Positions 12,604 through 60,450 of a DNA stretch of 64,000 bases are shown piece by piece. Under the pieces are notes generated by a model. That model did not search any database. It saw only the letters and a list, made by a program, of their open reading frames with translations, and had not been told where the DNA came from. Location of the stretch: the IMG/VR virus record IMGVR_UViG_3300024257_000004; one strand, written 5' to 3'. The stretch's first letter is position 1. Each line of letters opens with the position of its first letter. The DNA is from a virus (Duplodnaviria; Heunggongvirae; Uroviricota; Caudoviricetes; Schitoviridae). The position numbers and the translations under genes were made by a program.

Positions 12604-13270
12604 TGTTAAGCTCCTTTATTTGTTTCTTCATATCATTGTATAAATACATTGTTGCACATGCATCCACAGCTGCGTATTCAAGCATCTTAGGGTCCATTTT
12701 GTTAGCTTCAGTAAATTCTAGCTCATCGGCAATAGACCATTCACCGTATACGGATCCTGCTAAATGCTTCAGTCCTGTAAGTGCTTTACTAATATCACAG
12801 TGGTTGATTAATGTTTTAGCTAAGATCTGCGTATCTTCATAATTCTTAGGGAATCGACCAGTGAAATATCTAATTAATTTACCATCGTAACCTAAGTTAT
12901 GCCATATTTGCTTAATTTCCGTTGTAACTATCCAGTTAAGTACATACTCGTGAATTTCCGGGTTAAATACTATAACAAATGAATCATATTCAGATGTAGC
13001 AATTGACATGTGAGTTATCTGTATTAATGATGGGTGTGATAACCCGTCTGATGTAGTAACTTGGTTAAGATATACTAATTCCGGATCACGAAAGGGCACA
13101 TCAAGTTCCTCACGGTAATCTTTAGCTGCTACTACTTCCTCCTTAGAGTAAATAGAGGCAGCTTCAAAATCGGCAGCGATTGGTTTATTTGCTGGTAGAT
13201 TAGCCAGGGCTTGTTTGACTTGAGGTAACGTTGTATAGTGTACCCAGTCTACTTTACGAAATGGGTTCAT
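12542..13270 (-). CDS. DNA polymerase 3'-5' exonuclease domain (separate ORF or frameshifted N-terminal part of PolA)
   Basis: 242 aa. The Exo I motif is IAADFEAAS, typical of DnaQ-like proofreading domains. It ends 62 nt inside the next ORF, in a different frame. Confidence 0.65.
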   Translation of the reverse strand: MNPFRKVDWVHYTTLPQVKQALANLPANKPIAADFEAASIYSKEEVVAAKDYREELDVPFRDPELVYLNQVTTSDGLSHPSLIQITHMSIATSEYDSFVIVFNPEIHEYVLNWIVTTEIKQIWHNLGYDGKLIRYFTGRFPKNYEDTQILAKTLINHCDISKALTGLKHLAGSVYGEWSIADELEFTEANKMDPKMLEYAAVDACATMYLYNDMKKQIKELNNEQPTEPALDVSTTTGPFSI

Positions 13271-24680: not shown

Positions 24681-25022
24681 TTAATTCTCCTTATTCTCTA
24701 ATATCCATTGACATGCTTCGAATACTGCTTCTGATTCTGTATCTGCTAAAACTATTTCTTGTGGGTTTATTTTACCAGGTGAAGCTGTGCGATGATTTAC
24801 TTCACATGACGCGGATATTGCACCATGCCCTGAAAACAAAAAGTAATTCTTAGTATAAGCCCATTCTTTACATTTGTTAGCTAGTTCGTAGATGTTGATA
24901 TACCTATAATATAGCCTACTTCCTACTTTTTCAATATATTCAATCTCATTAGGCTGAAGCTGTTCGTCAATATCAAGTTTACAGCCTAATACTTCACTTA
25001 ATAATTCTTTAGATATTGGCAT
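24681..25022 (-). CDS. Hypothetical protein
   Basis: 113-aa ORF between the Nudix and Nampt genes. Confidence 0.45.
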   Translation of the reverse strand: MPISKELLSEVLGCKLDIDEQLQPNEIEYIEKVGSRLYYRYINIYELANKCKEWAYTKNYFLFSGHGAISASCEVNHRTASPGKINPQEIVLADTESEAVFEACQWILENKEN

Positions 25023-26467
25023 TAGTTACCCCAGTTTCTGATTTCAGCTAATGTTGTTTCTTTAAGCAGTTTACCATTCTCAAACACTACACTCAGTGCC
25101 TCTACGCAATGCATATTTGGTTGCTTACCAACAATTCCAGCGATGTATTCCTTAGTTTCAGTATCGAACCAAGTAGTTACTTTACCTTTCTTGGATGCTT
25201 TACCATGGTCCGTGATTGGGTCTTTGTAGACGTCTATGTCTTCATAAATGTATCCTGATTGACCATCTTTACAGATTGGGTCATCATACCGTCTAGTAAT
25301 AGAACTACATTTAATAGCAAACTTTTGAGTATCTCTATTAACATTCTGCATTAAATCACCACCTGAGCCAAATACAAAGTTTTCAGCAGCAAAAGGTTGT
25401 GTTGATGTTTGATCTGGTGCTGGAATTGTTTCATAAGTAGTAAATGTTTTAAGAATAGTTTCTATAGTGTGCGGTGTAATACCATCACCCCATAAAATAC
25501 CAAAGTTTGTTGAAAGTGCTTTGCCTTCTATATCTGTATCAAAACAATCATTGTTGACCATTATAGCTAACATTTGCTTGATGACATTAATAGGATGACC
25601 ACTATCAGGTCTTAAGACGAATTTCTGATTTGGTCTAGATTCGATTAGTTTTCTAATCCTAGAGTCTGGATGGGTACAGAATTCAGTGAATGCATATACG
25701 TCATAGCTATCTGCCACGAATGACATAATAGGCGCATCTGGGTTAGTTAATAATTGATCATATACAAATTGTTCTTCATTATCTCTACCATATGAAGTAG
25801 TTGAGCTGTGCTCAGTAGCAAATACTGAATATGACTCAGCGATGCCTGCTCCGTAAAATTCTTCACAGAAGTCTAATGAGTTGAAGTTATCAGTTCCCAT
25901 AAATTGTGTAGAGTGTGCAAATCCGCCGATAGCTGCAGCTTCAACAGAACTAGAACCTCTGTCTCCAAAATTGTGATATGCAAATTGTGCCCATTCAGGT
26001 GAACCGTATTTTTCTAACATTTGTTTAGCATAGTAAGATTTAGTGGCTATCGTAGTTGGATACCATAATTTCATAAGTATCGTTTCAGTAAAGCCTGCTA
26101 TCCATGGTACTTTAGGGTCTGTAGATTCAATAGTCATAAGTACATGTTTAGTTAGGACTAGCGATCCCTCATCAACTGCTTTGATCTTAATAGGTAAGTA
26201 ACCTAATTGCACGATATAAGACCAACCGTCATAATCAAATGGCACACCGTGCGCTTGACACCTGTCCCTAGTTTTATCTACTTCTTCTTGCGTAGGTATA
26301 CTCATTAAATACTGTTTAATATAGTATTGAAGTCCTACAAATACTGTTGCTGGGTATACACCACCTCTAGATTCCATGTAGTCATACATAGATACTGTAT
26401 TAGCTGGGTATTGGTTAGCATGGGAGTATTTGTAGCTATCGGCTAGGTTTAAGATGTTGTTTTTCAT
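25022..26467 (-). CDS. nadV: Nicotinamide phosphoribosyltransferase
   Basis: 481 aa. The N-terminus NILNLADSYKYSHANQYP...VFVGLQYYIKQYL closely matches NAMPT/NadV (NILLATDSYKVTHYKQYP...VFYGLQYILNKYL). Confidence 0.88.
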   Translation of the reverse strand: MKNNILNLADSYKYSHANQYPANTVSMYDYMESRGGVYPATVFVGLQYYIKQYLMSIPTQEEVDKTRDRCQAHGVPFDYDGWSYIVQLGYLPIKIKAVDEGSLVLTKHVLMTIESTDPKVPWIAGFTETILMKLWYPTTIATKSYYAKQMLEKYGSPEWAQFAYHNFGDRGSSSVEAAAIGGFAHSTQFMGTDNFNSLDFCEEFYGAGIAESYSVFATEHSSTTSYGRDNEEQFVYDQLLTNPDAPIMSFVADSYDVYAFTEFCTHPDSRIRKLIESRPNQKFVLRPDSGHPINVIKQMLAIMVNNDCFDTDIEGKALSTNFGILWGDGITPHTIETILKTFTTYETIPAPDQTSTQPFAAENFVFGSGGDLMQNVNRDTQKFAIKCSSITRRYDDPICKDGQSGYIYEDIDVYKDPITDHGKASKKGKVTTWFDTETKEYIAGIVGKQPNMHCVEALSVVFENGKLLKETTLAEIRNWGN

Positions 26468-29780: not shown

Positions 29781-29888
29781 TGGTGAACCTTTCAGGATTC
29801 GAACCTGAAACCGTGCAGGGTGGACCATCCATAATACGGGTAACGATCCCGGCCCCTCGCCTGCTCTACCAATTGAGCCTAAAGGTTC
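29781..29888 (-). ncRNA. tRNA-like element, 108 nt, with a GC-rich insertion in the anticodon region (noncanonical)
   Basis: The minus-strand RNA reads GAACCUU-UA-GGCUCAAUUGGUAGAGC...UCAGGUUCGAAUCCUGA-AAGGUUC-A-CCA. A perfect 7-bp acceptor stem, a D-arm, a T-arm (GGUUCGAAUCC) and an encoded CCA are all present. The region between the D- and T-arms is 54 nt instead of about 22, with internal hairpins (CGGG-AUCGUUA-CCCG) enclosed by a GCAGG/CCUGC helix. Confidence 0.5.
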
Positions 29889-30476
29889 TCGTATGTGTGC
29901 ACTATAACTGGTGCACACACCAGGATTCTTTTATATCCCGAATTCCCTTACCATCGGCAATAGCTTACGGCTATCAATCTGATAAACACAATAGGAAGAG
30001 GTTAGAAGTAAACTCCTGCCTCGTACTATTGATTATGTAGTGCGTCTGCCGTCTGATCACTACCCGTTTGTTCGTAGGCTACGTATTCGAGATAAGTGAA
30101 TATCCAATAACTCTACACCTGTGCTTTCACTAGCGTTTCATGCAGATCAGTTAGATCACCTAACAACTATACACCGTGAGCATCTCTTCCAGAGGTCGAC
30201 GTTTGGGAGACTCTATAACTGCTGTATAACGTGTACTTGACGGATCAATGTCTTTTGGGCTCTACTGTGACTTAGCCTAGGATGTCTGCTTGTTTCGGCA
30301 CGTTCCTAGGTACAGTTGATGTATAGCTGTTAGCTAATCTAAATACTCAAGCAGACCAAGTCTTGAGCAATCTTTAGGGTCAGCCCTCGACCAAAGGGTA
30401 TAAATTATATAGAAGTCTTTTAGGCTCATACTCAGGAGCTAGGTCTAGTTATTAGGGTCAAGGTGACCACACCTGG

Positions 30477-30931: not shown

Positions 30932-31344
30932 TATATTTCCTTTGTATTTTAATCTTCATTTATTACTATTAACTAAAAGCACCTAAAGGATCCGACTATA
31001 CTACATGCATTCGTATAGTCGATTATGTCGTAGTTTTCCAACAATGAAGGTCAAAGACCATTTACATACGTCCTACGCGTTAGTATGTCATATCACCAGC
31101 AAGGTTTCCCTATATGGATATTGTTGATGCTCTTAATTAATAATAAATAGTAGTGTAGATTTGCGTGTTCGCATTATACTGATAAAATTTCCCTTACTGT
31201 TAACATATAAAAATAATTTGTGTATAAATTTAAAGACTTCACGACTAAGTCATCTGGCTCTACTATGTGAACTGTTCAGGATTTAGTCGATTTGACAGTC
31301 TGTTTCTGCTATTGTATAGGCTCTATACTTCGTCTACCTATACA

Positions 31345-31565: not shown

Positions 31566-32432
31566 CTACTTAGTATTAACTATAACCGGGACGTTTCCAC
31601 CCATAAGTGTTGTTGGTAACTTACCATCCCACTTAGTTAATTCTTGTTCTCTAAGTTCAAGTCTTCTAAGCTCTAATAAGTCTTTAGTAATACCTGAAGC
31701 GATCTTCTTATTGTAGTCAGCAATTCTCTTAGCTTCAATCATTTTAATGTTGTACTCACCTTTAGCGATAGCTTCTCTACCCTTTAGTTTAGTTAACTCA
31801 ATTTGAACTTGTGCTTCTTCCTTTTCAATAGCCATTCTTCTTTCTTTAGCTTTTTCAATAGCTTCAGTTACGATTGCTGGATATTCAATACTTCCGATAG
31901 TTACATCAGAGATTTCGATAGGTAAGTGGTCTAGCTTAGGTTTAATTGCATTATATAGTTCTACAGTAATTCTAGCATAATTCGTATTTACTTCATCAAC
32001 ATTGTACTGTGATATAACTTCTCTCGCTGTATTAAGTACTACCATTTTACCGTAAGTATTATATACCTCGTCTGTAGTAACTATCTTATCGTCCATTTGC
32101 ATATCATTAAAGATTGTACTGATAGTTTTGTTATCACCACTAATTCTTCCTCTGAATACTATATGAGCTTTCAATGTAAGTTTATCTTTAAGCAATACTT
32201 TAATTGGTTGAGAATATTTCTTAGTTGTTGTTTGTACTAAAAACATTTTTTCAGGAGTTAAATTCCAAATATTGTTATTTAACCAAACTTTAGATGGAGG
32301 GTATACTTCTGGCTGGAAACCAGTTTTACCCATAATTTTACCTTTGTGTCCTGCTGGGACTTGCGTGTTACAGCCTGTAAATCCAAACATCACCAAACCG
32401 GCTAATACTAATACTATTAATTGTTTTTTCAT
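31566..32432 (-). CDS. Lipoprotein with SPFH/band-7 (prohibitin-like) domain
   Basis: The signal peptide has a lipobox (LVMFGFTGC). The C-terminal region has SPFH-like and coiled-coil features (IEKEEAQVQIELTKLKGREAIAKGEYNIKMIEAKR...). Confidence 0.55.
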   Translation of the reverse strand: MKKQLIVLVLAGLVMFGFTGCNTQVPAGHKGKIMGKTGFQPEVYPPSKVWLNNNIWNLTPEKMFLVQTTTKKYSQPIKVLLKDKLTLKAHIVFRGRISGDNKTISTIFNDMQMDDKIVTTDEVYNTYGKMVVLNTAREVISQYNVDEVNTNYARITVELYNAIKPKLDHLPIEISDVTIGSIEYPAIVTEAIEKAKERRMAIEKEEAQVQIELTKLKGREAIAKGEYNIKMIEAKRIADYNKKIASGITKDLLELRRLELREQELTKWDGKLPTTLMGGNVPVIVNTK

Positions 32433-33454: not shown

Positions 33455-33458
33455 AAGG

Positions 33459-33540
33459 TTACCATATCAGGAATCGAACCTGAGACATCTTGCTTGTTTG
33501 CATTTTAAGGCAAGCGCTCTACCGACTGAGCTATACGGTA
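33459..33540 (-). tRNA. tRNA, type II (long variable arm), Leu-like with UAA in the anticodon loop; anticodon stem-loop irregular (4-bp stem, 8-nt loop)
   Basis: The minus-strand RNA reads UACCGUA-UA-GCUC-AGUCGGUA-GAGC-G-CUUGC-CUUAAAAU-GCAA-(14-nt variable)-UCAGG-UUCGAUU-CCUGA-UAUGGUA-A. The acceptor, D-arm and T-arm are canonical. Confidence 0.6.
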
Positions 33541-33546
33541 ATAGGT

Positions 33547-33692
33547 TACTCGAGTAGGGATTGAACCTACGGCCTTCATCGTGTAATGGTAAATCTGCTA
33601 GGATTTGAACCTAGAACCCCTAGACTAAGCTAGTGCTCTAACCAGTTGAGCTACAGATTTTGGATGACGCTCTACCACTGAGCTACCGAGTA
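33547..33692 (-). tRNA. tRNA-like gene interrupted in its anticodon loop by a complete second tRNA gene (outer gene; probable pseudo-tRNA or processed composite)
   Basis: The 5' half reads UACUCGG-UA-GCUC-AGUGGUA-GAGC-G-UCAUC-CA. The 3' half reads UUACAC-GAUGA-AGGCC-GUAGG-UUCAAUC-CCUAC-UCGAGUA-A. The acceptor halves (UACUCGG/UCGAGUA) and anticodon-stem halves (UCAUC/GAUGA) are complementary across a 73-nt insert. Confidence 0.5.
33588..33660 (-). tRNA. tRNA nested inside the anticodon loop of the outer tRNA-like gene (encoded CCA; anticodon arm noncanonical)
   Basis: The RNA reads AAAUCUG-UA-GCUC-AACUGGUUA-GAGC-...-CUAGG-UUCAAAU-CCUAG-CAGAUUU-A-CCA. The acceptor stem, D-arm and T-arm are perfect. 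The anticodon region (ACUAG-CUUAGU-CUAGG) has only a 6-nt loop. Confidence 0.5.
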
Positions 33693-46219: not shown

Positions 46220-48709
46220 CTAAAATTTAGTAATGTGGTTAAATGATAATCTACTAGAATCCATTCCAGAAATATTCATTTGATCTTGAGTGTAGTCTGC
46301 TGTAAATTCTAGAGAAGAGTTATCAGTTAACCTGTGGTTATAATTTGCATAAACACTAACTTCCTGACCTGCAGGAGCTAGTGAAGTTGATTGAGTTGAA
46401 TTAGATATTGATCCATCCATAGCTCTTGAAGTTGGTACAACTGAAGTAACTGATCCTGAATCAACTCTCATAGGTAGTTTAATACCACCGTTAAAGTTAG
46501 TTGAAACATAAGTTAGTTTAGCTGCCATACCTGTAACTGCAGTAATATCTGTAAACATTCCACCTACTTGTCCATCTGCTGTACCATAAGTTACTGATGC
46601 AGTAAGTCCGTTGTAAGTTGGAGTATCTATAGTTAAATACTGAGTTTTACCTGAGATGCTCATAGCACCCTCACCTGTAGTACCGAATAAGTCATTAGAT
46701 TGAGCATACATGAATTTGAATCCCTTGATACTAGTACCAATAGATGCTGATTGTGATGCTTCGTCTAATCCAATAATAATACTGTTAGAGAATTCCATTT
46801 GCTGGTAAGAATCTGCATCAAATGCATATCCTGTGTTAGCTACTTGTGATGTCATGTCAAGAGTATAACCTCTGTTGAAATCATCAAGAATTAATGTGCT
46901 AGACAGTGCTGATATACTAAGTGCTGATCCAAATGCAGAACTAGATGTAATCTGAGTCTTGCTTGAATCGAATTTAGGTGCTGTAGAAGTAATGTATCCA
47001 CCTGTAGGAATGTTTATAGTACCTACTGGTTGCATAGCTTTTTCAATATTTAATAGACCATGTCCATAAATATCATCAACACCTTCCTCACCTAAGTCAG
47101 TAGTTGTAGCAAACATAATGTCTCTGATTTCTCTACCTACTAGGTAAGGGAATTTCTCAGCTAATAAAGCAAAAGCACCTGTAACAACTGGAGCTGCCAT
47201 AGATGTACCCTGCATATAATTGTAGTCACCCTCATCGTATATTCTATCCGCACTGTCAGATGATTTAGTTGACATAATCATACCGTCAGATCCAGATGCT
47301 GTGAATAAATCTCCACCTGGAGCTACTATGTACCAGTCTTTAGTTATACCTGCAGCGTTAGAATAATACGCAAGAGTGTCATCTGTTGATTTGTTAACTC
47401 CGTTCCCAGAAGTGTAATTAAAGTTATATGAATCACTAATTGATCCAACTGCAATAAATGCTCCGTCATATGTCCCATCAACCATATCAGCATAATCCTC
47501 GAAAGCCGGAAGAGCTGCTGGGTAATTACATTTACCTGTTGAAGTATATCCCATATCCTTACATTGACCAGAATTATTACCTGCTGCAAATATTAATGAT
47601 GTGTCAGCTTTTAAAGCTGTTCTAATATCCTCTACACTACTAGCGTAGTATGATGGACTCCAATAAGTTGTACCTAGTGATAAGTTAGCAACTTTAGCGT
47701 CTTGTTCAGCTGCAAGTTTAATACCTGCAGTGATAGTACTTAATGAACCACTTCCTGAATTGCTTAGTACTTTGATACTAATAATATCAGCATTGTAAGC
47801 AACACCGTGCATACCTTCGTCATCCTTAGTTGCTGCGATAATACCTGCTACGTGCGTACCATGTCCATGAAGATCTTCACCTGAATCGCTATACATAGTA
47901 AATGTACCTTTGATGTTATCAGCAAGATCACTGTGATCAGCATCAATACCTGTATCTAATACAGCTACTTTAACACCTGCCCCTGTCCAACCTTGCTCAT
48001 AAGCAGCTGCAGCGTTAACTTTTTCTAAGAAGTTTCCAGCTTTATATTCTGCTGTGATTGGATTAAGGTCTTTAGTTCCAGGAGTTCCTAGAGTGTAATC
48101 AGGTGTTCCTACTATTCTAACTGGAGCAACTACTGGAATTTCTTTGATAGTGAATTCTTCTTTACCGTATGCAGATCTATCACCTTTATCATCCATTACA
48201 TAGAAAAGGATTTTGTAGTCTGCTACAGGAAGGTCATCAATAGTTTCTTTAGATGAATTAAGTACTTTAAAGTATCTACCATTCTTATACAAGAAACCTC
48301 TGTGTTGTACAATAGTACCGTCACTGTCTGTAGATTGTGATGAGTCTACTGTTACAGATTGACCACTAGTTGTTGCTGTTAGAACTAGTGTAGGTTTAGC
48401 GTTTACAACTTCTTCAGCTCCTGAAGCTGATACTGTTTTCTTTACTAGTTTATATTTTTTACCGTCGCTATCTTTAGCTACCATAAGAAACTTATAAGTT
48501 GCATCAACTAGCGGTAAATAGTCTGTACCAGTTAATTTAGTAAAGTATCTACCATTCTTCCATACGTATATAGTAGTAGAGCCTACTGAACCAGATGTGT
48601 CAATTTTGATACTTGATTCTGTAGTTGATATACTCATATTTGCTACTGCTGCGTAAGATGATGTAGCTAATAAAGCACTAAGTGCTAATAGTTTCAATAA
48701 ATGTTTCAT
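46220..48709 (-). CDS. Secreted subtilisin-like serine protease (peptidase S8) with N-terminal repeats and a beta-rich C-terminal domain ending in Phe (autotransporter-like)
   Basis: A signal peptide (MKHLLKLLALSALLATSSYAAVA) precedes the catalytic triad motifs VAVLDTGID (Asp), HGTHVAGIIA (His) and GTSMAAPVVTGA (Ser). An internal repeat (KNGRYF...) occurs twice. The C-terminus is ...SFNHITKF. Confidence 0.8.
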   Translation of the reverse strand: MKHLLKLLALSALLATSSYAAVANMSISTTESSIKIDTSGSVGSTTIYVWKNGRYFTKLTGTDYLPLVDATYKFLMVAKDSDGKKYKLVKKTVSASGAEEVVNAKPTLVLTATTSGQSVTVDSSQSTDSDGTIVQHRGFLYKNGRYFKVLNSSKETIDDLPVADYKILFYVMDDKGDRSAYGKEEFTIKEIPVVAPVRIVGTPDYTLGTPGTKDLNPITAEYKAGNFLEKVNAAAAYEQGWTGAGVKVAVLDTGIDADHSDLADNIKGTFTMYSDSGEDLHGHGTHVAGIIAATKDDEGMHGVAYNADIISIKVLSNSGSGSLSTITAGIKLAAEQDAKVANLSLGTTYWSPSYYASSVEDIRTALKADTSLIFAAGNNSGQCKDMGYTSTGKCNYPAALPAFEDYADMVDGTYDGAFIAVGSISDSYNFNYTSGNGVNKSTDDTLAYYSNAAGITKDWYIVAPGGDLFTASGSDGMIMSTKSSDSADRIYDEGDYNYMQGTSMAAPVVTGAFALLAEKFPYLVGREIRDIMFATTTDLGEEGVDDIYGHGLLNIEKAMQPVGTINIPTGGYITSTAPKFDSSKTQITSSSAFGSALSISALSSTLILDDFNRGYTLDMTSQVANTGYAFDADSYQQMEFSNSIIIGLDEASQSASIGTSIKGFKFMYAQSNDLFGTTGEGAMSISGKTQYLTIDTPTYNGLTASVTYGTADGQVGGMFTDITAVTGMAAKLTYVSTNFNGGIKLPMRVDSGSVTSVVPTSRAMDGSISNSTQSTSLAPAGQEVSVYANYNHRLTDNSSLEFTADYTQDQMNISGMDSSRLSFNHITKF

Positions 48710-48986: not shown

Positions 48987-49355
48987 TTATTCTCTGAGAT
49001 ATATTCTCAATGGTTTGATTATCTCTGGGTGTTTAAGTTTTCTTACTACTTGGTTTATTTCTGTACTCATAGCCGTAGCTGATTTACTGAATACAGTTGC
49101 CATAACTTCTGCACTGCCCTCATCACGATTAGGTTCGATAGTTGCGTCAACACGTCTGCGTTTTAATACTGCTAGGTTTTCTTTTAGTCTTTTAGTTAGT
49201 TGGTCAAGTTCATCTACATAAGCTTGGCCTTCAGCGGCTATTTGGTAGTTTGAATTATGTGACATATCCGCAAATGGCCGTCTGGCATTAGCTATGTACT
49301 TAATTTCTGTCTCATAGTCATTTATGATATTATTTATTATTTTTAAATTAGGCAT
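48987..49355 (-). CDS. Hypothetical protein
   Basis: 122-aa ORF. Confidence 0.45.
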   Translation of the reverse strand: MPNLKIINNIINDYETEIKYIANARRPFADMSHNSNYQIAAEGQAYVDELDQLTKRLKENLAVLKRRRVDATIEPNRDEGSAEVMATVFSKSATAMSTEINQVVRKLKHPEIIKPLRIYLRE

Positions 49356-49785
49356 AATCGTTAACTCCTTCTACGTCAATATGCTCCGGTAGGATTAGTA
49401 CTTTCAATTCATCTAGGGCTTTCTTAACCTTTTTGTCGTTCAACGATATATTTTGTAGTTTACGCTTAGCTTGATCATCTATTTGTTGAATTCGTTGTTT
49501 AGTTACTCCGCCTAGTACAAAAGCTATGTCCTCAAAAGGCAAGTCTTTAAGAAATTCTGAATACTTAGTTTTAATAAGTCGGTTAAGTACGTAAGCTGGA
49601 AATTCTTGTTTTTCCCATACTTTGAATGAGAGTTTAGGCGTTTTACTGTGCAACTTCTCCATACATTCCGCATGAATACGCTCTTTAGCGGCTTTTGGTG
49701 TGTACTTTACAAAGTCTTTTACTATACTTCTTATTGCTAAAAGCCCGTTATATGTTACAAGGTCAGTGTGTTTAGTTTTAGCCAT
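49348..49785 (-). CDS. Sigma-factor-like protein (sigma-70 region 4-like HTH)
   Basis: 145 aa. The segment DIAFVLGGVTKQRIQQIDDQAKRKLQ matches the region 4.2 HTH consensus (IAxxLGxSxERVRQIExxALRKLR). Confidence 0.5.
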   Translation of the reverse strand: MAKTKHTDLVTYNGLLAIRSIVKDFVKYTPKAAKERIHAECMEKLHSKTPKLSFKVWEKQEFPAYVLNRLIKTKYSEFLKDLPFEDIAFVLGGVTKQRIQQIDDQAKRKLQNISLNDKKVKKALDELKVLILPEHIDVEGVNDYA

Positions 49786-50036
49786 AATAGCTCCTTTATT
49801 GTTTATAGGTGGTTTAGAGTTTTTTCTTAATTGGCACTTTTTAAAAAAATAAACGCTTTATAGTTCCATAGGGTCGTAATTAATTAACAATTTGTAAAAA
49901 AACTGAGTATTTTGACTCTAGGTCTGCCATTAATTCTTCCATCTGTCCGATAGTTACTTCTCCTATGTATTCCACATGGTCGGTATAGTGAATTGTACAT
50001 ATTCCGTTGATGACTTTTACTGTAATTGGTTCCATT

Positions 50037-50624
50037 TTATAATCCTTTTAAAAGTATTGGTAGTGCTTCAAGATGTTTATCTTTCTGCTTCTGTGAGTCT
50101 GTGTAAGCCATATCATGGAACATACTTACTATTTTCACTTTAGTTGCTAGTTTATTACGTGCTATACCTTTAATATATTCAAGATATGTTTGGTTTGACT
50201 GCTTAGTTAGTAAACTTAGTGCATGATACGCATTTTCAAATATAATATAGGCTTCACCTTTATATATTTTGATAAAACTATACCCTGATTCAGTGGAATG
50301 CAATAATTTCGCTTCCGTATATTTAAATAGGCCATGTAATACAGCTACTATCTTCTCTTCTTCTGTATCCATCATGTTCATAACTGCTAATGGATGAGTA
50401 ATGTAAGGTTCTACTGTATACCATTGTTTGTAATTAGTGCAATATGTAAGCATACTCTTGTTTGGCAGCGCTAGATATTCTCCTACTAGGGAACCATACA
50501 TCATATCTGACATTTGTTCATCTGTAATTAATTCACCTGGGCCTTGTCTTAGGTATTTAGGTCGTTTCCATTGCCCCTCATGTGCTTTCGTTGCTAATTC
50601 AATAGCTTGTGGTAATGTAACCAT
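50037..50624 (-). CDS. RelA/SpoT-family HD-domain protein (small alarmone hydrolase-like; catalytic HD appears as HG)
   Basis: 195 aa with ATKAHEGQWKRPKY and EPYITHPLAVMNMM, matching the SpoT hydrolase motifs AxxAHxGQxRK and EPYITHPxAV. The expected LHD motif reads LHG. Confidence 0.6.
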   Translation of the reverse strand: MVTLPQAIELATKAHEGQWKRPKYLRQGPGELITDEQMSDMMYGSLVGEYLALPNKSMLTYCTNYKQWYTVEPYITHPLAVMNMMDTEEEKIVAVLHGLFKYTEAKLLHSTESGYSFIKIYKGEAYIIFENAYHALSLLTKQSNQTYLEYIKGIARNKLATKVKIVSMFHDMAYTDSQKQKDKHLEALPILLKGL

Positions 50625-50637
50625 TCTATATTTCCTT

Positions 50638-51093
50638 TTATTTTATTGGGTATTGTGTTGTTCTATCGTAACCTAGCCTACCATGGATGTGCTGATGGCA
50701 GTCACGGCATACTAGGTTTAGATCTGATAAATCTTCTGAGCCTAGACGTTCATAAGTATTATGGTGTACCTCTAAAGATTCTGGGTTGCCGCAGCACTCA
50801 CACTTGCTGTCGTGTAGTATATACATAAGATCTTGTAGTGTCTTCCACTTTGAGGATTTAAGATACTCTCGCTTCTCTTTAGCTGACATGTACTGATTAC
50901 CTGCGGTGTACGTGTCTGGTATGGTACCATTATACTCATCCTGGCTACTGTCTATAGTTGAGTAATATACATTGTAACATATTAATAAAAAAATAAATAA
51001 AACAGGCAGCATAGTTATAGTCTGTAAAGTTATAATAAATATAATAAACACAGAAACTACAAGTAAGTAGTATTGAAATTGATTCTTAATCAT
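50638..51093 (-). CDS. HNH endonuclease with N-terminal transmembrane segments
   Basis: 151 aa. The C-terminus CECCGNPESLEVHHNTYERLGSEDLSDLNLVCRDCHQHIH is an HNH motif. The N-terminal 40 aa are hydrophobic. Confidence 0.65.
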   Translation of the reverse strand: MIKNQFQYYLLVVSVFIIFIITLQTITMLPVLFIFLLICYNVYYSTIDSSQDEYNGTIPDTYTAGNQYMSAKEKREYLKSSKWKTLQDLMYILHDSKCECCGNPESLEVHHNTYERLGSEDLSDLNLVCRDCHQHIHGRLGYDRTTQYPIK

Positions 51094-51134
51094 AATTAAC
51101 CCTTTTACTCTCTTATAGACTTAAAAAAAAAATA

Positions 51135-51167
51135 ACCACAATACTCAATTAAGAGTATTGTGGTTAA
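51135..51167 (-). terminator. Rho-independent terminator (13-bp stem) followed by a U-run on the minus strand
   Basis: AACCACAATACTC-AATTAA-GAGTATTGTGGTT is flanked by A10 on the plus strand (U-run on the minus transcript). It lies downstream of the RNA polymerase gene. Confidence 0.6.
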
Positions 51168-51198
51168 TAAGTCATCTGTTGTATAAAACAAAAAAAAA

Positions 51199-51222
51199 TA
51201 AGCATACACTGTTACGTGTATG
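51199..51222 (-). terminator. Second tandem terminator hairpin with U-run
   Basis: GCATACAC-TGTTAC-GTGTATGC is preceded on the plus strand by CAAAAAAAAATAA. Confidence 0.5.
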
Positions 51223-51234
51223 CTGTTTATAAGG

Positions 51235-53163
51235 TTATTTAAGTGCCATAGGGTCACACTTAAAGTCAGTTGTTAGAGGGTTAATTTGTTTACTAAGTTT
51301 TTGCCATTCCTTCATAGCATTACTGTTAAGTCTGATAGATTTGAAGTAATTATTCAGAATAGCTTCTCTATCTGCGTATACATCTTCTATTTTAGTTGCG
51401 TATAGTTCTCTAGTTTGTTGCGCATGTACAGGAGATACTATAAATGCGTCGTGTATAGTTAAAGCCCAAGGTAAAGCTTCACCGATTGAGTCAGCAATTT
51501 GACTATCAAGGTTATGTATTAGTAGTGTTTGGAAGTATCTTTTGAACTGTTTTAAGTCTGGTACTTTATGCGTATGTGTATGCGCTATGGCAAGTACAGA
51601 TCTATCAGCAGTAGAGTAGATAGGGTATCTTCTAGTGTAGTCTCCTACATTCTTGAATTTATTACAAGATATAGTAAATTCTTCATTCCAAATCTTTACA
51701 TCCATACTTTGAGATGGTTGTGCGTTATCAATTACCATGTTCTTGAAGTCATTAGCTACTGCGTAGAAGCCGTTCTTTACTTCGAAAGACATTAATGCTA
51801 ACTGCTTAGTAGTGTAGTCTAATCCTTTCTTATCCCAAAGAGTTTTAACTGTCTGAGATGAACCGTATAATGTAGGTGTAGCGTACGACTTAACTTGTAA
51901 CCTACTGATATTGTCTAAATGCCAAGGATCAGTGATACCAGTGTTAGTTAATACGTTAGTTGCTTCCATATAAGGTGTGTGGTTAAGTAATACACCAGTA
52001 AGTTGAAGCATAGATGCTGATGCGTCTAACTCAATAGGTACGTAAGAGTAGAAAGGTTCATCAGTATTTCTACTAAAGAATGCATCTAGCTCGTCATACA
52101 ATCTTTCTAGCCAAATTAGCTCGTGTAATTCACTTCTGTCATGGTCAGCTCGTGCTATTTCAGCCGTAACTTCATCGTCAGTCATGAACGAAGTTAATAC
52201 TTCTTGACAGTCTAGCTTAGGTAATTCTCTGTTTTTATACATTTCTTTACCGATTCTAGCCTTATCCTGTTCACTATCGCAGAATTTAGTACCATTTAGT
52301 TCAGCAATAAATAAGTAGATTGCATGTGTATACGCTCTTGCTTCTTTGAATGAGTTTGTTGGTACTAACGTAGCTGGATTAATAAGTAATGCTCTCGCAT
52401 CTTTGAATCCAATAGGGTTAAATACTTTCTTAAGTGCGTTAGATATAGCTCTACCTCTAGAGTCGTTGTAGTTAGCTCCAAGTGTAAACTCTTCTTCTGA
52501 GTACATATGGTAGTCAACGATATCTTTAGATATAGAATTATAATCTGCTCCATCTTCTACTAGTTCGTGTATTTCAGCAACTTTTCTCATAGATTTAGTT
52601 ACATTCATAACTATTGCATCATAGTACTTATATAAGTAATCTGTGTCATACTTAAAAGAGTTAGTTCCTGTAGTAGCGAACCCGTTTCTTGTAAGTCCAG
52701 TGTCTAACACTCTACCGTTTTGCTTAGTTAGGTTAGCGGCTGCGATATTTGGTTTATACTCTAGTTTATACTTGTTAAACTTAATAGCTTTTCTGATATT
52801 AGTAATAACTTCTTGAGGTACTACTTCTAGTAGTTTAGCTTCTACTAACTCTATTTCAGCCCAGTGTCTAGCTGGTACTACAATAGAGTTAATCCAACCT
52901 GCATCACTTAAATTCTTAAGGAATTGGTTGAATACTTTAGGATCTTCAAATTTATCATACCAGTAAGTAGTAGATATTGTAGATTTATTCTTAAGGTAGT
53001 TAGTCCATAGGTTCTTCCACATACTCTCCATTAGTTGTGTTGGTTCTTTGATTAAGTCTAATACTTCTACCGGAAAGCTTAGTTTACCTTGCTCTAGTTC
53101 TAATCTGAACTGCACTCTCTGCGCTAATCTTTGTTTTACTGTTGATATTACATTTACTGACAT
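51235..53163 (-). CDS. Single-subunit DNA-dependent RNA polymerase (T7-like / N4 RNAPII-like), 642 aa
   Basis: Motif A is LDASASMLQ (T7 DGSCSGIQH). Motif B is VKSYATPTLYGSS (T7 KRSVMTLAYGS). Motif C is LTIHDAFIV (T7 LIHDSFGT). The size is close to the fused N4 RNAPII p4 plus p7 (673 aa). Confidence 0.75.
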   Translation of the reverse strand: MSVNVISTVKQRLAQRVQFRLELEQGKLSFPVEVLDLIKEPTQLMESMWKNLWTNYLKNKSTISTTYWYDKFEDPKVFNQFLKNLSDAGWINSIVVPARHWAEIELVEAKLLEVVPQEVITNIRKAIKFNKYKLEYKPNIAAANLTKQNGRVLDTGLTRNGFATTGTNSFKYDTDYLYKYYDAIVMNVTKSMRKVAEIHELVEDGADYNSISKDIVDYHMYSEEEFTLGANYNDSRGRAISNALKKVFNPIGFKDARALLINPATLVPTNSFKEARAYTHAIYLFIAELNGTKFCDSEQDKARIGKEMYKNRELPKLDCQEVLTSFMTDDEVTAEIARADHDRSELHELIWLERLYDELDAFFSRNTDEPFYSYVPIELDASASMLQLTGVLLNHTPYMEATNVLTNTGITDPWHLDNISRLQVKSYATPTLYGSSQTVKTLWDKKGLDYTTKQLALMSFEVKNGFYAVANDFKNMVIDNAQPSQSMDVKIWNEEFTISCNKFKNVGDYTRRYPIYSTADRSVLAIAHTHTHKVPDLKQFKRYFQTLLIHNLDSQIADSIGEALPWALTIHDAFIVSPVHAQQTRELYATKIEDVYADREAILNNYFKSIRLNSNAMKEWQKLSKQINPLTTDFKCDPMALK

Positions 53164-53225
53164 TCTGTATTCCTTATAAGTTGTTAAATAGTTCTAGCAC
53201 GACTGGCTAGAATGCCAGTGCGGTG

Positions 53226-53882
53226 TTATGCTGTTTTATACACGATATCTGCTACTTCATCATTGTTAGATGGGTCCAGTAGTTTGTTGTCCTCATATTG
53301 AGTATTAGCTTTTATTACAGCTTTGTCTTCAAGCACTTGTAGTTTGTCCTGATTGATTTGACTAAAGTTCACTGCTGCTAATCCGATTTCTCTTGCTACT
53401 GTTTCTAAGATTGCTCTCATTTCGTGGGCATTGCCTATAGCGCCTGGTACTACTGATCCAGTTAATTTGTCGAAGTAAGTATTTCTACCTGCTACGTCTG
53501 GGAATGCATTAGCTCTCAGTTCTAGTGTACTAGCGAAGTACGATAATTCTGGGTTAAGAGCTATAGCTTCATTTAGAGCTTCTCTACCAGCTTTCTTCTG
53601 GAATTGGATTGTTCTAATAGCTCCGATTAGTGCATTTGCTTGAGTACCGAAGTTAAATTCTTGGTATCTTGCGAAATGCCTATCACTAATGCTGTCCAGC
53701 GGTTTAGTTATTGCTAATAGCACGGCGTCATCCGCCAGTGTTACTTGATCATTAACGTACTTGTCCGAGTTGATGTAGTTAAGCTCATTTTCTAGTTTGA
53801 TTACCTCTATTCTCTCTGTTGCTTCTACTTTTCTAGCCTTACTTGCTTCATTGATCTTGTTGATTAATTCTTGTTTTGTCAT
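53226..53882 (-). CDS. Hypothetical protein
   Basis: 218-aa ORF. Confidence 0.5.
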   Translation of the reverse strand: MTKQELINKINEASKARKVEATERIEVIKLENELNYINSDKYVNDQVTLADDAVLLAITKPLDSISDRHFARYQEFNFGTQANALIGAIRTIQFQKKAGREALNEAIALNPELSYFASTLELRANAFPDVAGRNTYFDKLTGSVVPGAIGNAHEMRAILETVAREIGLAAVNFSQINQDKLQVLEDKAVIKANTQYEDNKLLDPSNNDEVADIVYKTA

Positions 53883-53974
53883 GTGTTTAATTCCTGTGTT
53901 TATTTTATTTGTTAGTATTCTATCACTTTGTTATGATATACCAGGTGTACGGCTAGTTTTTTGACAGTTACGGT

Positions 53975-53993
53975 CATATCATAAATTAACGGT
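53975..53993 (-). promoter_or_regulatory. Conserved intergenic motif copy a (TCATATCATAAATTAACGG), candidate phage promoter
   Basis: Shares the 14-nt core ATCATAAATTAACG with three other intergenic sites. It lies about 95 nt upstream of the leftward gene starting at 53882. Confidence 0.4.
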
Positions 53994-54007
53994 AAAGTAC
54001 GATGTAC

Positions 54008-55930: not shown

Positions 55931-55950
55931 CTTATCATAAATTAACGCAG
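55931..55950 (-). promoter_or_regulatory. Conserved intergenic motif copy b (CTTATCATAAATTAACGCAG)
   Basis: Same 20-nt motif. It sits in a roughly 60-nt tandem duplicated unit upstream of the gene starting at 55840. Confidence 0.4.
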
Positions 55951-55990
55951 CTGTACGTTGTACTAAGTGCTGTTGTTAGTAGTAATTAGT

Positions 55991-56010
55991 CTTATCATAA
56001 ATTGACGAAG
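55991..56010 (-). promoter_or_regulatory. Conserved intergenic motif copy c (CTTATCATAAATTGACGAAG)
   Basis: The second copy in the tandem duplication. The flanking GTACTAAGTGCYTGTTG is also repeated (55963 and 56057). Confidence 0.4.
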
Positions 56011-56107
56011 GTGTACCGTACGTTGAGTGACGAGCTAGTACTATTACGTCGTACTAAGTGCCTGTTGTACTCTCTTGTACCCCTTACTAAAAACAAAGAG
56101 ATAGACC

Positions 56108-56389
56108 CTAAAGGTCTATTTCGATGTTTGTCGGTGCTGGATTATTAAGACGGTGTCTTACTAGTCCGCATATGTGAGGACCGTCGTCTTCACCGTATAG
56201 CTCCTCGAGCGTTTGTCCATTCAGTTTTTGACTGAATAGGATGCCGTATTGTACGGCCTTGTCTTTACTTGTAAAGTCAGCGTAAGCTGGTTGGTTGATT
56301 AGAGAGTTAGCGATCTTATCAGCAATTGTGTATTTAGTTTTTAATTCCATTCGAAATCCTTTTAGTATGTAGTTTTGGGTTAGAAACAA
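56108..56389 (-). CDS. Hypothetical protein
   Basis: 93 aa. It is the last gene of the leftward block. Confidence 0.45.
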   Translation of the reverse strand: MFLTQNYILKGFRMELKTKYTIADKIANSLINQPAYADFTSKDKAVQYGILFSQKLNGQTLEELYGEDDGPHICGLVRHRLNNPAPTNIEIDL

Positions 56390-56447
56390 TGCAGGTGGTC
56401 CTCGCCTTGCTCACGCAGGAGAATCTTTAGATTATTCCTTATCATAA

Positions 56448-56467
56448 ATTAACGAAGCGTAGCGTAG
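56448..56467 (-). promoter_or_regulatory. Conserved intergenic motif copy d (CTTATCATAAATTAACGAAG)
   Basis: Lies 60 nt upstream of the leftward gene starting at 56389. It is an exact match to the consensus. Confidence 0.4.
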
Positions 56468-59733: not shown

Positions 59734-59809
59734 GCTGTTGTAGCTCAGTTGGTAGAGCACCTCACTTGTAATGAGGCGGTCGGTGGTTCAAATCCTCTCA
59801 ACAGCTCCA
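59734..59809 (+). tRNA. tRNA-Thr (anticodon UGU)
   Basis: GCUGUUG-UA-GCUC-AGUUGGU-AGAGC-A-CCUCA-CUUGUAA-UGAGG...CAACAGC-U-CCA. The cloverleaf has a 7-bp acceptor stem and an encoded CCA. Confidence 0.8.
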
Positions 59810-59810
59810 C

Positions 59811-59886
59811 GGGGAATTAGCTCAGCTGGGAGAGCGTCTGCCTTGCACGTAGAAGGTCATCGGTTCGAACCCGATATTCTCCACCA
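59811..59886 (+). tRNA. tRNA-Ala (anticodon UGC)
   Basis: GGGGAAU-UA-GCUC-AGCUGGGA-GAGC-G-UCUGC-CUUGCAC-GUAGA-AGGUC-AUCGG-UUCGAAC-CCGAU-AUUCUCC-A-CCA. A G3:U70 pair is present, as expected for tRNA-Ala. Confidence 0.85.
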
Positions 59887-60022
59887 TATGAATTTATTAG
59901 ACACTGATTATGGAACCGGTAAATTAACTGGGGACTATTGAGTTAGAACACAATCTCTGTTCCGTGAATTCACAACACATATCTGCTCCGCCTCTCTATG
60001 AAGCGCAACCGAGCAGGTCTTT

Positions 60023-60097
60023 GGTCCCTTCATCTAATGGTTAGGATTTTGGATTTTCATTCCAACCATAGGAGTTCGAATCTCCTAGGGATCACCA
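60023..60097 (+). tRNA. tRNA-Glu (anticodon UUC)
   Basis: GGUCCCU-UC-AUCU-AAUGGUUA-GGAU-U-UUGGA-UUUUCAU-UCCAA-CCAU-AGGAG-UUCGAAU-CUCCU-AGGGAUC-A-CCA. Confidence 0.8.
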
Positions 60098-60100
60098 TAT

Positions 60101-60174
60101 TGACGTATCGCCAAGCGGTAAGGCCGTAGCTTTTGGTGCTACTATCCTAGGTTCGATCCCTAGTGCGTCATCCA
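60101..60174 (+). tRNA. tRNA-Gln (anticodon UUG)
   Basis: UGACGUA...GUAGC-UUUUGGU-GCUAC-UAUC-CUAGG-UUCGAUC-CCUAG-UGCGUCA-U-CCA. Confidence 0.8.
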
Positions 60175-60189
60175 TAAATAATAATAAGT

Positions 60190-60266
60190 GCGGTTGTAGT
60201 TTAGTTGGTTAGAATGCCTGCCTGTCACGCAGGAGGTCGCGAGTTCGAGTCTCGTCAACCGCGCCA
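60190..60266 (+). tRNA. tRNA-Asp (anticodon GUC)
   Basis: GCGGUUG-UA-GUUU-AGUUGGUUA-GAAU-G-CCUGC-CUGUCAC-GCAGG-AGGUC-GCGAG-UUCGAGU-CUCGU-CAACCGC-G-CCA. Confidence 0.85.
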
Positions 60267-60271
60267 CTTTT

Positions 60272-60347
60272 TCCGAATTAGCTCAGTTGGTAGAGCGCAC
60301 GACTGTTAATCGTGTTGTCGATGGTTCGAGCCCATCATTCGGAGCCA
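60272..60347 (+). tRNA. tRNA-Asn (anticodon GUU)
   Basis: UCCGAAU-UA-GCUC-AGUUGGU-AGAGC-G-CACGA-CUGUUAA-UCGUG-UUGUC-GAUGG-UUCGAGC-CCAUC-AUUCGGA-G-CCA. Confidence 0.85.
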
Positions 60348-60362
60348 CAAATTTAAAATGTA

Positions 60363-60450
60363 GAGAGTTGACAGAGTTGGTCGAATGTACCGGTTTTGAA
60401 AACCGGCGAGGTTTACGCCTCCAGCGGTTCGAATCCGCTACTCTCTGCCA
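60363..60450 (+). tRNA. tRNA-Ser (anticodon UGA), type II with long variable arm
   Basis: AGAGAGU...CCGGU-UUUGAAA-ACCGG-(variable arm CGAGGUUUACGCCUCC)-AGCGG-UUCGAAU-CCGCU-ACUCUCU-G-CCA. Confidence 0.8.

What the first reader, a model, noticed from the sequence alone, without database searches (positions are those of the whole stretch)
49348..53163. Phage-encoded single-subunit RNA polymerase (642 aa, N4 RNAPII-sized) next to a sigma region-4-like protein
The 642-aa ORF has T7-type motifs A, B and C (DASASMLQ, K...YGSS, HDAF) but is about 240 aa shorter than T7 RNAP. It is close in size to the two-subunit N4 RNAPII fused into one chain, so it lacks the N-terminal promoter-binding domain. Three genes away is a 145-aa protein whose C-terminus matches a sigma-70 region 4.2 HTH. 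A minimal RNAP of this kind that needs a separate specificity factor would be an unusual transcription system. Two tandem intrinsic terminators (51135-51222) follow the RNAP gene.
Basis: partly seen in the sequence, partly recalled or inferred. Interest (0 to 1): 0.7.

Follow-up and report, generated by a model that had tools for sequence, protein, structure and literature searches.

The report
Hidden N4-type phage RNA polymerase module
The 642-aa gene is a very divergent, so far unannotated T7/N4-RNAPII-type phage RNA polymerase.

Summary
ORF 51235-53163(-) is 642 aa and carries motifs A, B and C. Two hairpin/T-run terminators follow it, and a 145-aa ORF (49348-49785) lies four genes downstream.

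The phage is a distant relative of the Alteromonas AD45 podophages, which were reported to lack RNAPII. Its contig also carries the split virion-RNAP gene pair, so an N4-like cascade is likely. In the AD45-like clade the gene is two ORFs split where N4 gp15|gp16 split, and it is often interrupted by introns.

A 218-aa acidic helical protein with no known fold lies directly upstream of the polymerase in 46 of 46 related loci. It is the best cofactor candidate.

The 145-aa protein does resemble the sigma-70 region 4.2 HTH, weakly. It occurs near the polymerase in only 3 lineages, so it is unlikely to be the general specificity factor.

Verdict: a new variant of a known kind, of moderate interest.

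The parts
51235..53163 (-). Single-chain, N4-RNAPII-like single-subunit RNA polymerase (642 aa, 74 kDa). Key residues: DxRGR 234-238; motif A D380; motif B K425/Y433/G434; H550 (equivalent to T7 H784, placed from memory of the T7 sequence); motif C H571-D572. A beta-hairpin at about 503-535 looks like a specificity loop. A probable winged-helix module lies at about residues 43-106.
53226..53882 (-). 218-aa acidic (pI 5.0) helical protein with an N-terminal coiled coil. It is the obligate upstream neighbour of the polymerase and the candidate polymerase cofactor.
51190..51224 (-). Terminator 1: 9-bp stem, 6-nt loop, T-run. It starts 11 nt after the RNAP stop codon.
   Evidence: Terminator-like hairpins sit in the same position after the RNAP gene in L005, L006 and L018.
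51123..51166 (-). Terminator 2: 14-bp stem, 6-nt loop, T10.
53975..53991 (-). Copy D of the 17-nt early-region motif CGTTAATTTATGATAAG, 93 nt upstream of the 218-aa gene. Candidate early promoter.
   Evidence: 5 matches at up to 3 mismatches against 0.36 expected; the 4 good ones are all on the minus strand upstream of the RNAP
55931..56454 (-). Three more copies of the same motif (55931-55947, 55991-56007, 56438-56454) at the head of the minus-strand early gene block.
   Evidence: They are not sigma-70-like by the consensus scan. Upstream hairpins are inconsistent.
50638..51093 (-). 151-aa HNH-motif protein with a hydrophobic N-terminal segment. It is the first gene after the terminators and is conserved downstream of the RNAP in about 23 loci.
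   Evidence: (PF01844 E 1.7e-5)
49348..49785 (-). 145-aa basic (pI 9.4) protein with a sigma-70 region-4.2-like HTH at residues about 81-115. The N-terminal 65 residues have no detectable similarity to anything.
   Evidence: Sigma70_r4 E 0.11; relative P0125, itself Sigma70_r4 at E 1.8e-13; hhalign prob 56%, E 1e-4; 11/21 identical to E. coli sigma70 4.2; sporadic distribution

Best explanation
The window comes from a roughly 115-kb marine podophage of the AD45-like, distantly N4-related group. The 642-aa protein is its second, non-virion RNA polymerase: a very divergent T7-family enzyme equivalent to N4 RNAPII, here as one chain.

Shown:
- Its fold, catalytic motifs and closest relatives.
- Its position as the last gene of a block of small minus-strand genes headed by four copies of a phage-specific 17-nt motif.
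- The two terminators that close this block.
- The presence in the same genome of the split giant virion-RNAP gene pair.
- An invariant upstream partner gene of 218 aa.

Inferred, by analogy with N4:
- The injected virion RNAP, or possibly the host RNAP, transcribes the early block from the 17-nt motifs up to the double terminator. This produces the 218-aa protein and the polymerase.
- The polymerase, helped by the 218-aa protein as a recruitment or initiation cofactor, then transcribes the downstream replication and nucleotide-metabolism genes on the minus strand. In this role the 218-aa protein would be a functional analogue of N4 gp2 or LUZ7 Drc, not a homolog.
- The 145-aa sigma-region-4-like HTH protein is a lineage-specific middle-gene product. 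It is most likely a DNA-binding regulator, or a factor acting on the host RNAP or its -35 sites, and not a subunit of the phage polymerase.
For: RNAP identity:
- The profile reaches N4 RNAPII gp16 only, with motifs A, B and C aligned.
- The AF2 model has pLDDT 93.4.
- DxRGR, D380, Y433, H550 and D572 are invariant and K425 nearly invariant.
- A separate family-A DNA polymerase is encoded elsewhere in the window.

N4-like context:
- The relatives are the AD45 phages, which carry a split virion RNAP seen in virion gels (PMC3821669).
- The window's own contig has 1355-aa and 2579-aa genes homologous to that pair.
- In the AD45-like clade the gene is two ORFs split 23 residues after DxRGR, against 28 residues in N4 gp15.

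Early-operon layout:
- The motif occurs four times and only upstream of the RNAP.
- A terminator follows the RNAP in four lineages.
- Replication genes lie downstream.

Partner:
- The 218-aa family is adjacent and co-oriented in 46/46 loci, while RNAP identity falls to about 31%.
- It is acidic, like N4 gp2 (the gp2 pI of 5.2 is from PMC7145618).

145-aa protein:
- Its family is sporadic.
Against: - There is no biochemical or expression data. Promoters for the 642-aa polymerase were not found: no over-represented motif appeared downstream of the terminators.
- The role of the 218-aa protein rests only on gene linkage. It has no DNA-binding or other recognisable fold and no similarity to gp2 or gp14.
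- The polymerase keeps a long, partly basic hairpin that looks like a specificity loop and a possible winged-helix module. It might therefore recognise promoters unaided.
- Which polymerase reads the early motifs is unknown. N4-type hairpins are present at only 2 of the 4 copies.
Confidence: 0.62

Rival explanations
1. The minimal polymerase cannot find promoters itself. The 145-aa sigma-region-4-like protein acts as its separate promoter-specificity subunit.
For: The 145-aa protein has a genuine, if weak, region-4.2-like HTH. It is basic (pI 9.4) and lies 1.4 kb downstream of the polymerase in the same orientation. Related sigma4-like ORFs in L005/L007 and L021 also sit 3-5 kb downstream of the polymerase.
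Against: The family is detectable near the RNAP in only 3 lineages out of about 40. It is absent from the closest relative L004 and from the AD45 phages. It lies behind two terminators, in a different transcription unit from the polymerase. No T7-family RNAP is known to use a sigma-derived factor; the cofactors listed in PMC4496689 Table 1 are SSB-like or methyltransferase-like. The -35-contacting residues of sigma70 are not conserved (R584K, E585Q, R588Q by the alignment; sigma numbering from memory).
Confidence: 0.06
2. The polymerase is self-sufficient, like T7 RNAP. It recognises duplex promoters through its own N-terminal region, winged-helix module and specificity-loop-like hairpin. The 218-aa protein is an unrelated early protein (host takeover or regulation) that is merely inherited together with it.
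Against: Adjacency in 46 of 46 loci, across RNAP divergence to about 31% identity and through both the fused and split forms, is unusual for functionally unrelated early genes, which turn over fast in these loci. The nearest characterised enzyme, N4 RNAPII, is inactive on duplex DNA without cofactors (PMC4496689).
Confidence: 0.22
3. The 642-aa protein is not a transcriptase. It is a family-A DNA polymerase or primase-like replication enzyme.
Confidence: 0.02

Closest known systems
Coliphage N4 RNAPII (gp15 + gp16; PDB 6DT7)
   Same: It is the only solved protein reachable by sequence profile (E 1.2e-4; hhalign prob 90.6), with motifs A, B and C aligned. The combined size is similar (673 vs 642 aa). 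Clade relatives are split into two ORFs at the same place, just after DxRGR. It is encoded among small early genes in a genome that also encodes a giant virion RNAP.
   Different: Here it is a single chain. Identity to gp16 is only about 16% over 290 structurally aligned residues, and gp15 is not detectable beyond the DxRGR motif. No gp1, gp2 or Drc homolog is found. Instead there is an invariant 218-aa upstream partner of unknown fold. The specificity-loop-like hairpin is not acidic. A winged-helix-like module is probably present.
T7 RNA polymerase and mitochondrial RNAPs (Rpo41, POLRMT)
   Different: It is about 240 aa shorter than T7 RNAP: about 157 aa less before motif A and about 83 aa less between motifs A and C, by motif positions (T7 numbering from memory). 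There is no Pfam PF00940 hit. T7 RNAP needs no cofactor, and the mitochondrial enzymes use methyltransferase-like factors (PMC4496689).
Alteromonas phages vB_AmaP_AD45-P1..P4 (gp041, gp044, gp046, gp048)
   Same: They are the only isolated phages with this polymerase (42% identity) and with the 218-aa partner (gp041). They have the same split virion RNAP.
   Different: In AD45 the polymerase is annotated as three hypothetical proteins. There is a subunit split at residues 261|277, and a group I intron (Rfam RF00028, 55.7 bits) carrying a GIY-YIG endonuclease sits at the conserved His. The original paper states that no RNAPII gene was found (PMC3821669).
Sigma-70 region 4.2 (for the 145-aa protein)
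   Same: The HTH recognition helix VTKQRIQQIDDQAKRKL matches VTRERIRQIEAKALRKL of E. coli sigma70 (11/21 identical). All top PDB sequence hits are sigma region 4. The distant relatives P0124 and P0125 hit RpoD/RpoH C-termini.
   Different: There is no region 2 or 3. The score is below the Pfam threshold (12.5 vs 24.1 bits). The protein is 145 aa with an unrelated N-terminal half and a sporadic distribution.

Membership tests
T7-like single-subunit RNA polymerases | Right-hand Pol-I-type fold that is closer to ssRNAPs than to DNA polymerases | tested here: met
T7-like single-subunit RNA polymerases | Catalytic motifs A (Asp), B (Lys...Tyr-Gly), C (His-Asp) and the T/DxxGR motif | tested here: met
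   D380, Y433, D572 and D234-x-R-G-R238 are invariant, and K425 and G434 nearly invariant (at least 90%), in 32 homologs. They align with N4 gp16 motifs and with the gp15 DKRGR.
T7-like single-subunit RNA polymerases | Match to the curated family model (Pfam RNA_pol PF00940, or NCBIfam) | tested here: not met
   No Pfam or NCBIfam hit at E up to 0.1-1. Only a weak PHROG 2051 'RNA polymerase' hit at E 7.7e-4. The family is too divergent for current models.
T7-like single-subunit RNA polymerases | DNA-dependent RNA synthesis | not testable with these tools
   Needs biochemistry.
N4 RNAPII-type (middle) polymerase system | Heterodimer of a small N-terminal subunit and a large catalytic subunit | tested here: not met
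   The window gene is one 642-aa ORF. Relatives L018 and L027 have 249+377 and 248+375 aa ORFs split at the N4-equivalent point.
N4 RNAPII-type (middle) polymerase system | Co-occurrence with a giant virion-encapsidated RNAP in the same genome | tested here: met
   The 115,080-bp source contig carries 1355-aa and 2579-aa genes homologous to the AD45 split vRNAP. The AD45 proteins were seen in virion gels (PMC3821669).
N4 RNAPII-type (middle) polymerase system | gp2 / gp1 or Drc-type ssDNA-binding cofactor | tested here: not met
   The 218-aa family profile shows no similarity to N4 gp2 or gp14. There is no PDB sequence or fold match, which would include Drc if it is present in those libraries.
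N4 RNAPII-type (middle) polymerase system | Transcribes middle genes from AT-rich promoters on single-stranded or melted DNA | not testable with these tools
   No promoter motif was found downstream of the terminators.
Sigma-70 family (145-aa protein) | Region 2 (core binding, -10 recognition) | tested here: not met
   No hit to any sigma region 2 model. Residues 1-65 match nothing.
Sigma-70 family (145-aa protein) | Region 4.2 helix-turn-helix | tested here: inconclusive
   Pfam Sigma70_r4 gives E 0.11 and 12.5 bits, against a cutoff of 24.1. Against that, all top PDB hits are sigma r4, the unbiased 3-sequence profile gives hhalign prob 56% and E 1e-4, and the relative P0125 passes the threshold.
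Intrinsic (hairpin + U-run) terminators | G+C-containing stem directly followed by a T-run on the gene strand, downstream of a stop codon | tested here: met
   Two sites at 51224-51190 and 51166-51123. Positional equivalents occur in L005, L006 and L018.

The most novel reading that the evidence does not exclude
In this lineage a free-standing sigma-70 region-4 derivative (the 145-aa protein) has been recruited as a DNA-sequence-reading adaptor for a T7-family polymerase. It could act alone or together with the 218-aa partner. If so, a module from multisubunit-RNAP initiation would serve a single-subunit RNAP. My evidence makes this unlikely but does not exclude it for the three lineages that carry the protein.
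Probability: 0.05. Interest if true: 0.85.

Novelty: new variant of a known kind. Interest (0 to 1): 0.5.

Why it matters
- The AD45-type marine podophages were described as lacking an RNAPII gene, and every database calls these proteins hypothetical. Recognising the gene restores a complete N4-like two-polymerase scheme to a widespread marine phage group. About 300 metagenomic homologs were found with E <= 0.001.
- The family contains both fused and split forms, with the split at the N4 subunit junction. That makes it a natural system for asking why N4-type polymerases are heterodimers.
- The strictly linked 218-aa protein of unknown fold would be a third, unrelated answer, after N4 gp2 and LUZ7 Drc, to how minimal T7-family polymerases are brought to promoters. 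AD45-P1 and its Alteromonas host are cultivable, so this can be tested directly.
The idea of a sigma-like specificity factor is not supported, and cofactor-dependent minimal ssRNAPs are already known.

Tried and rejected
- Near-identity DNA search of 49000-54000 against isolated phages: no match.
- Single-sequence PDB search with the polymerase: only noise.
- Pfam and NCBIfam on the polymerase, on its N-terminal 130 and 280 residues, and on the 218-aa protein: nothing.
- Word-indexed and full HMMER searches for the 145-aa protein: only four weak relatives. AD45 gp112, an HTH regulator of 149 aa, is not related. There are no tblastn hits in isolated phages for the 145-aa or 218-aa proteins.
- Search for a polymerase-specific promoter. 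11-mer counting allowing one mismatch and visual inspection of about 20 intergenic regions gave only the RBS-plus-start-codon consensus (AAAGGATAACTAATG) and coding-bias words.
- Reading the 17-nt early motif as a sigma-70 promoter: rejected, because no acceptable -35 or extended -10 is present and the scan did not flag it.
- Reading the motif as an N4-type hairpin promoter: inconclusive. Small 3-nt-loop hairpins are predicted at 2 of the 4 window copies (z -0.26 and -1.65) and at 2 of 4 copies of a different motif in L005 (z -2.9 and -1.8). The motif itself is not shared with related phages, which have their own repeats.
- Pattern scans for vRNAP homologs in viral contigs reached only the AD45-like clade. 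The window's own vRNAP pair was found by walking off the window's left end instead.
- The N4 RNAPII structure paper (PMC6120196) is not held, so statements about its N-terminal domain and specificity loop are second-hand, from PMC7145618.
Full report
**1. Observation**

The minus strand carries a 642-aa ORF at 51235-53163 and a 145-aa ORF at 49348-49785. Three ORFs lie between them: 151, 195 and 51 aa. The quoted motifs are present: DASASMLQ at 380-387, K425...Y433-G-S-S, and H571-D-A-F. Two hairpin-plus-T-run sites follow the stop codon, with stems at 51224-51201 and 51166-51133.

**2. What the 642-aa protein is**

No Pfam or NCBIfam model recognises it. PHROGs covers it with three families of unknown function and gives one weak 'RNA polymerase' hit.

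It has about 300 metagenomic homologs, none carrying an informative functional name. A 32-sequence alignment has D234, R236-G-R238, D380, Y433, S435, H550 and D572 invariant, and K425 and G434 nearly invariant.

The profile of that alignment finds one meaningful PDB sequence. This is N4 RNAPII gp16 (6dt7_B, E 1.2e-4), with motifs A, B and C in register. hhalign against N4 gp16 gives probability 90.6. Against gp15 only the DxRGR motif lines up, and not significantly.

The Tyr and His that in T7 RNAP (Y639, H784, from my memory of the T7 sequence) select ribonucleotides have invariant counterparts, Y433 and H550. The phage encodes a separate, intron-split family-A DNA polymerase. I regard the protein as a T7-family RNA polymerase, closest to N4 RNAPII, as established as computation allows.

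**3. Features of the polymerase**

By motif positions it is about 157 aa shorter than T7 RNAP before motif A, and about 83 aa shorter between motifs A and C.

A long beta-hairpin at about 500-537 has a conserved frame and a variable tip, with net charge +3. It resembles a specificity loop.

**4. Genomic context**

The only isolated relatives are Alteromonas phages AD45-P1 to P4, at 42% identity. There the gene appears as three 'hypothetical' CDSs, gp044, gp046 and gp048.

The gap between gp046 and gp048 holds a group I intron (Rfam, 55.7 bits) and a GIY-YIG endonuclease. It sits exactly at the invariant His.

The break between gp044 and gp046 (residues 261|277) recurs in about a dozen loci. 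In several of them it is two abutting ORFs in different frames, for example L018 with 249+377 aa and L027 with 248+375 aa. The break lies 23 residues after DxRGR, where N4 gp15 ends 28 residues after its DKRGR. This family therefore has both fused and N4-like two-subunit forms.

Other relatives carry insertions in motif A and motif C.

The 2013 AD45 paper states that no RNAPII-like gene was found. It also reports that the giant virion RNAP is split into two proteins seen in virion gels (PMC3821669).

Walking off the left end of the window on its own 115,080-bp contig reveals adjacent 1355-aa and 2579-aa genes. These are homologous to that AD45 pair (26% identity over 1247 aa, E 6e-96). The phage thus has both polymerases of the N4 scheme.

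**5. Layout**

The minus-strand arm runs as follows:
- It starts at about 56.4 kb with small ORFs, headed by copies of CGTTAATTTATGATAAG.
- A fourth copy lies 93 nt upstream of a 218-aa gene.
- The 218-aa gene and then the polymerase gene come next.
- The two terminators come after the polymerase gene.
- Beyond them are an HNH-like gene, an HD gene, the 145-aa gene, a subtilase, ATPases, helicases, DNA polymerase, ligase and RNR.

The motif has 4 good copies against 0.36 expected, all upstream of the polymerase. It does not fit sigma-70 spacing. Related phages have their own different repeats in the same region. Hairpins of the N4 early-promoter type are present at only some copies.

A terminator directly after the polymerase gene is also found in L005, L006 and L018, although the sequences are unrelated.

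I infer that the polymerase is the last gene of an early unit. Which enzyme reads the early motifs, virion RNAP or host RNAP, is open.

**6. The real partner**

The 218-aa gene has a homolog immediately upstream of the polymerase, in the same orientation, in 46 of 46 loci that include upstream sequence. These comprise 39 distinct sequences. Gaps are mostly 4-75 nt. Polymerase identity meanwhile falls to about 31%, and the surrounding small genes are not conserved.

The protein is acidic, with pI 5.0 and a family median of 5.2. It is helical with an N-terminal coiled coil (pLDDT 80.5).

N4 RNAPII requires gp2 and gp1, and LUZ7 RNAPII binds Drc (PMC4496689, PMC7145618). I therefore propose, by inference from linkage only, that the 218-aa protein is the cofactor of this polymerase.

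**7. The 145-aa protein**

The direct evidence for a sigma relationship is weak:
- Pfam Sigma70_r4 gives E 0.11.
- The PDB phmmer hits are all sigma region 4, but at E 0.12-6.

Other evidence points the same way:
- A full HMMER scan of 1.8 billion representatives gives only four hits. One of them, P0125 (E 5.5e-4), is a bona fide Sigma70_r4 protein (E 1.8e-13).
- A three-sequence profile built without the sigma-like relatives aligns to E. coli sigma70 4.2 with probability 56% and E 1e-4.
- The recognition helix is 11/21 identical to that of sigma70.

So the resemblance is real, but it is limited to the HTH. Residues 1-65 match nothing.

The family is found within 10 kb of the polymerase only in the window's own lineage, in L005/L007 and in L021. 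It is absent from AD45. It also lies beyond the two terminators.

It is therefore unlikely to be the polymerase's general specificity factor. More probable roles are a lineage-specific HTH regulator or a factor that targets the host RNAP or its -35 sites. No role could be tested.

**8. Comparison and verdict**

The system works like the N4 middle-transcription module. It passes the fold and motif tests for T7-family RNAPs and co-occurs with a virion RNAP. It fails the curated-model test, is single-chain here, and lacks gp1, gp2 or Drc homologs.

I classify it as a new variant of a known kind. Interest is moderate, at 0.5. The value lies in three things: an unrecognised RNAPII in a phage group said to lack it, a fused/split series at the N4 junction, and a strictly linked partner of unknown fold.

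Noticed in passing
window 10722-10943 (-), with ORFs 11533-12603, 10923-11480 and 9833-10615: A group I intron (Rfam RF00028, 99.8 bits) with an adjacent HNH_3 endonuclease ORF splits the family-A DNA polymerase gene into a 356-aa part and a 260-aa part. The 3'-5' exonuclease is a separate 242-aa ORF at 12542-13270.
   Followed up: partly
L060 16922-22271 (source contig about 4.7 kb beyond the window's left end): Adjacent 1355-aa and 2579-aa genes are homologous to the split N4-like virion RNA polymerase of the AD45 phages. The phage therefore encodes two T7-family polymerases.
   Followed up: yes
L001 8735-11077; L038, L039, L040, L041, L043, L044: Homologs of the polymerase gene are interrupted by 0.3-1.2-kb insertions exactly at motif A (residues 378-384), at the invariant His550 (549|550) and near motif C (about 575-579). 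In AD45-P1, the only one of these inserts scanned with Rfam apart from L040, one insert is a group I intron carrying a GIY-YIG endonuclease.
   Followed up: partly
window 46220-48709 (-): An 829-aa subtilase (Peptidase_S8, E 1e-54) with what looks like an N-terminal signal peptide (not tested with a predictor) is encoded among the phage's middle genes. A secreted protease is unusual cargo for a phage.
   Followed up: no
window 50638-51093 (-): A 151-aa HNH-motif protein with a hydrophobic, probably membrane-spanning N-terminus is conserved just downstream of the polymerase in about 23 related loci. It behaves like a resident gene, not a mobile homing endonuclease.
   Followed up: partly
window 53975-53991, 55931-55947, 55991-56007, 56438-56454 (-): The 17-nt motif CGTTAATTTATGATAAG occurs four times and only in the early region. 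It is not sigma-70-like and is not shared with related phages, which have their own repeats in the same place (L005...TTTTTCTATCTATTGGATA x4; L006: TCTCTACTAATGTATTTCCATC x3).
   Followed up: partly
window 59734-60450 (+) and 33457-33660 (-): There is a cluster of seven tRNA genes (Thr, Ala, Glu, Gln, Asp, Asn, Ser). Separately there are two tRNA-like genes that Rfam scores as tRNA but for which ARAGORN reports abnormal anticodon loops ('taaa', 'ta'). A further tRNA-3'-end-like repeat lies at 29782-29811.
   Followed up: no
window 29919-30476 and 30932-31344 (-): Two stretches of about 0.4-0.56 kb have no ORF on the gene strand and no Rfam hit, in an otherwise tightly packed genome.
   Followed up: no
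window 25022-26467, 31566-32432, 50037-50624 (-): Auxiliary genes: a nicotinamide phosphoribosyltransferase (NAMPT), an SPFH/Band-7 protein (AD45-P1 also has one, gp087) and an HD-type phosphohydrolase (phrog_990).
   Followed up: no
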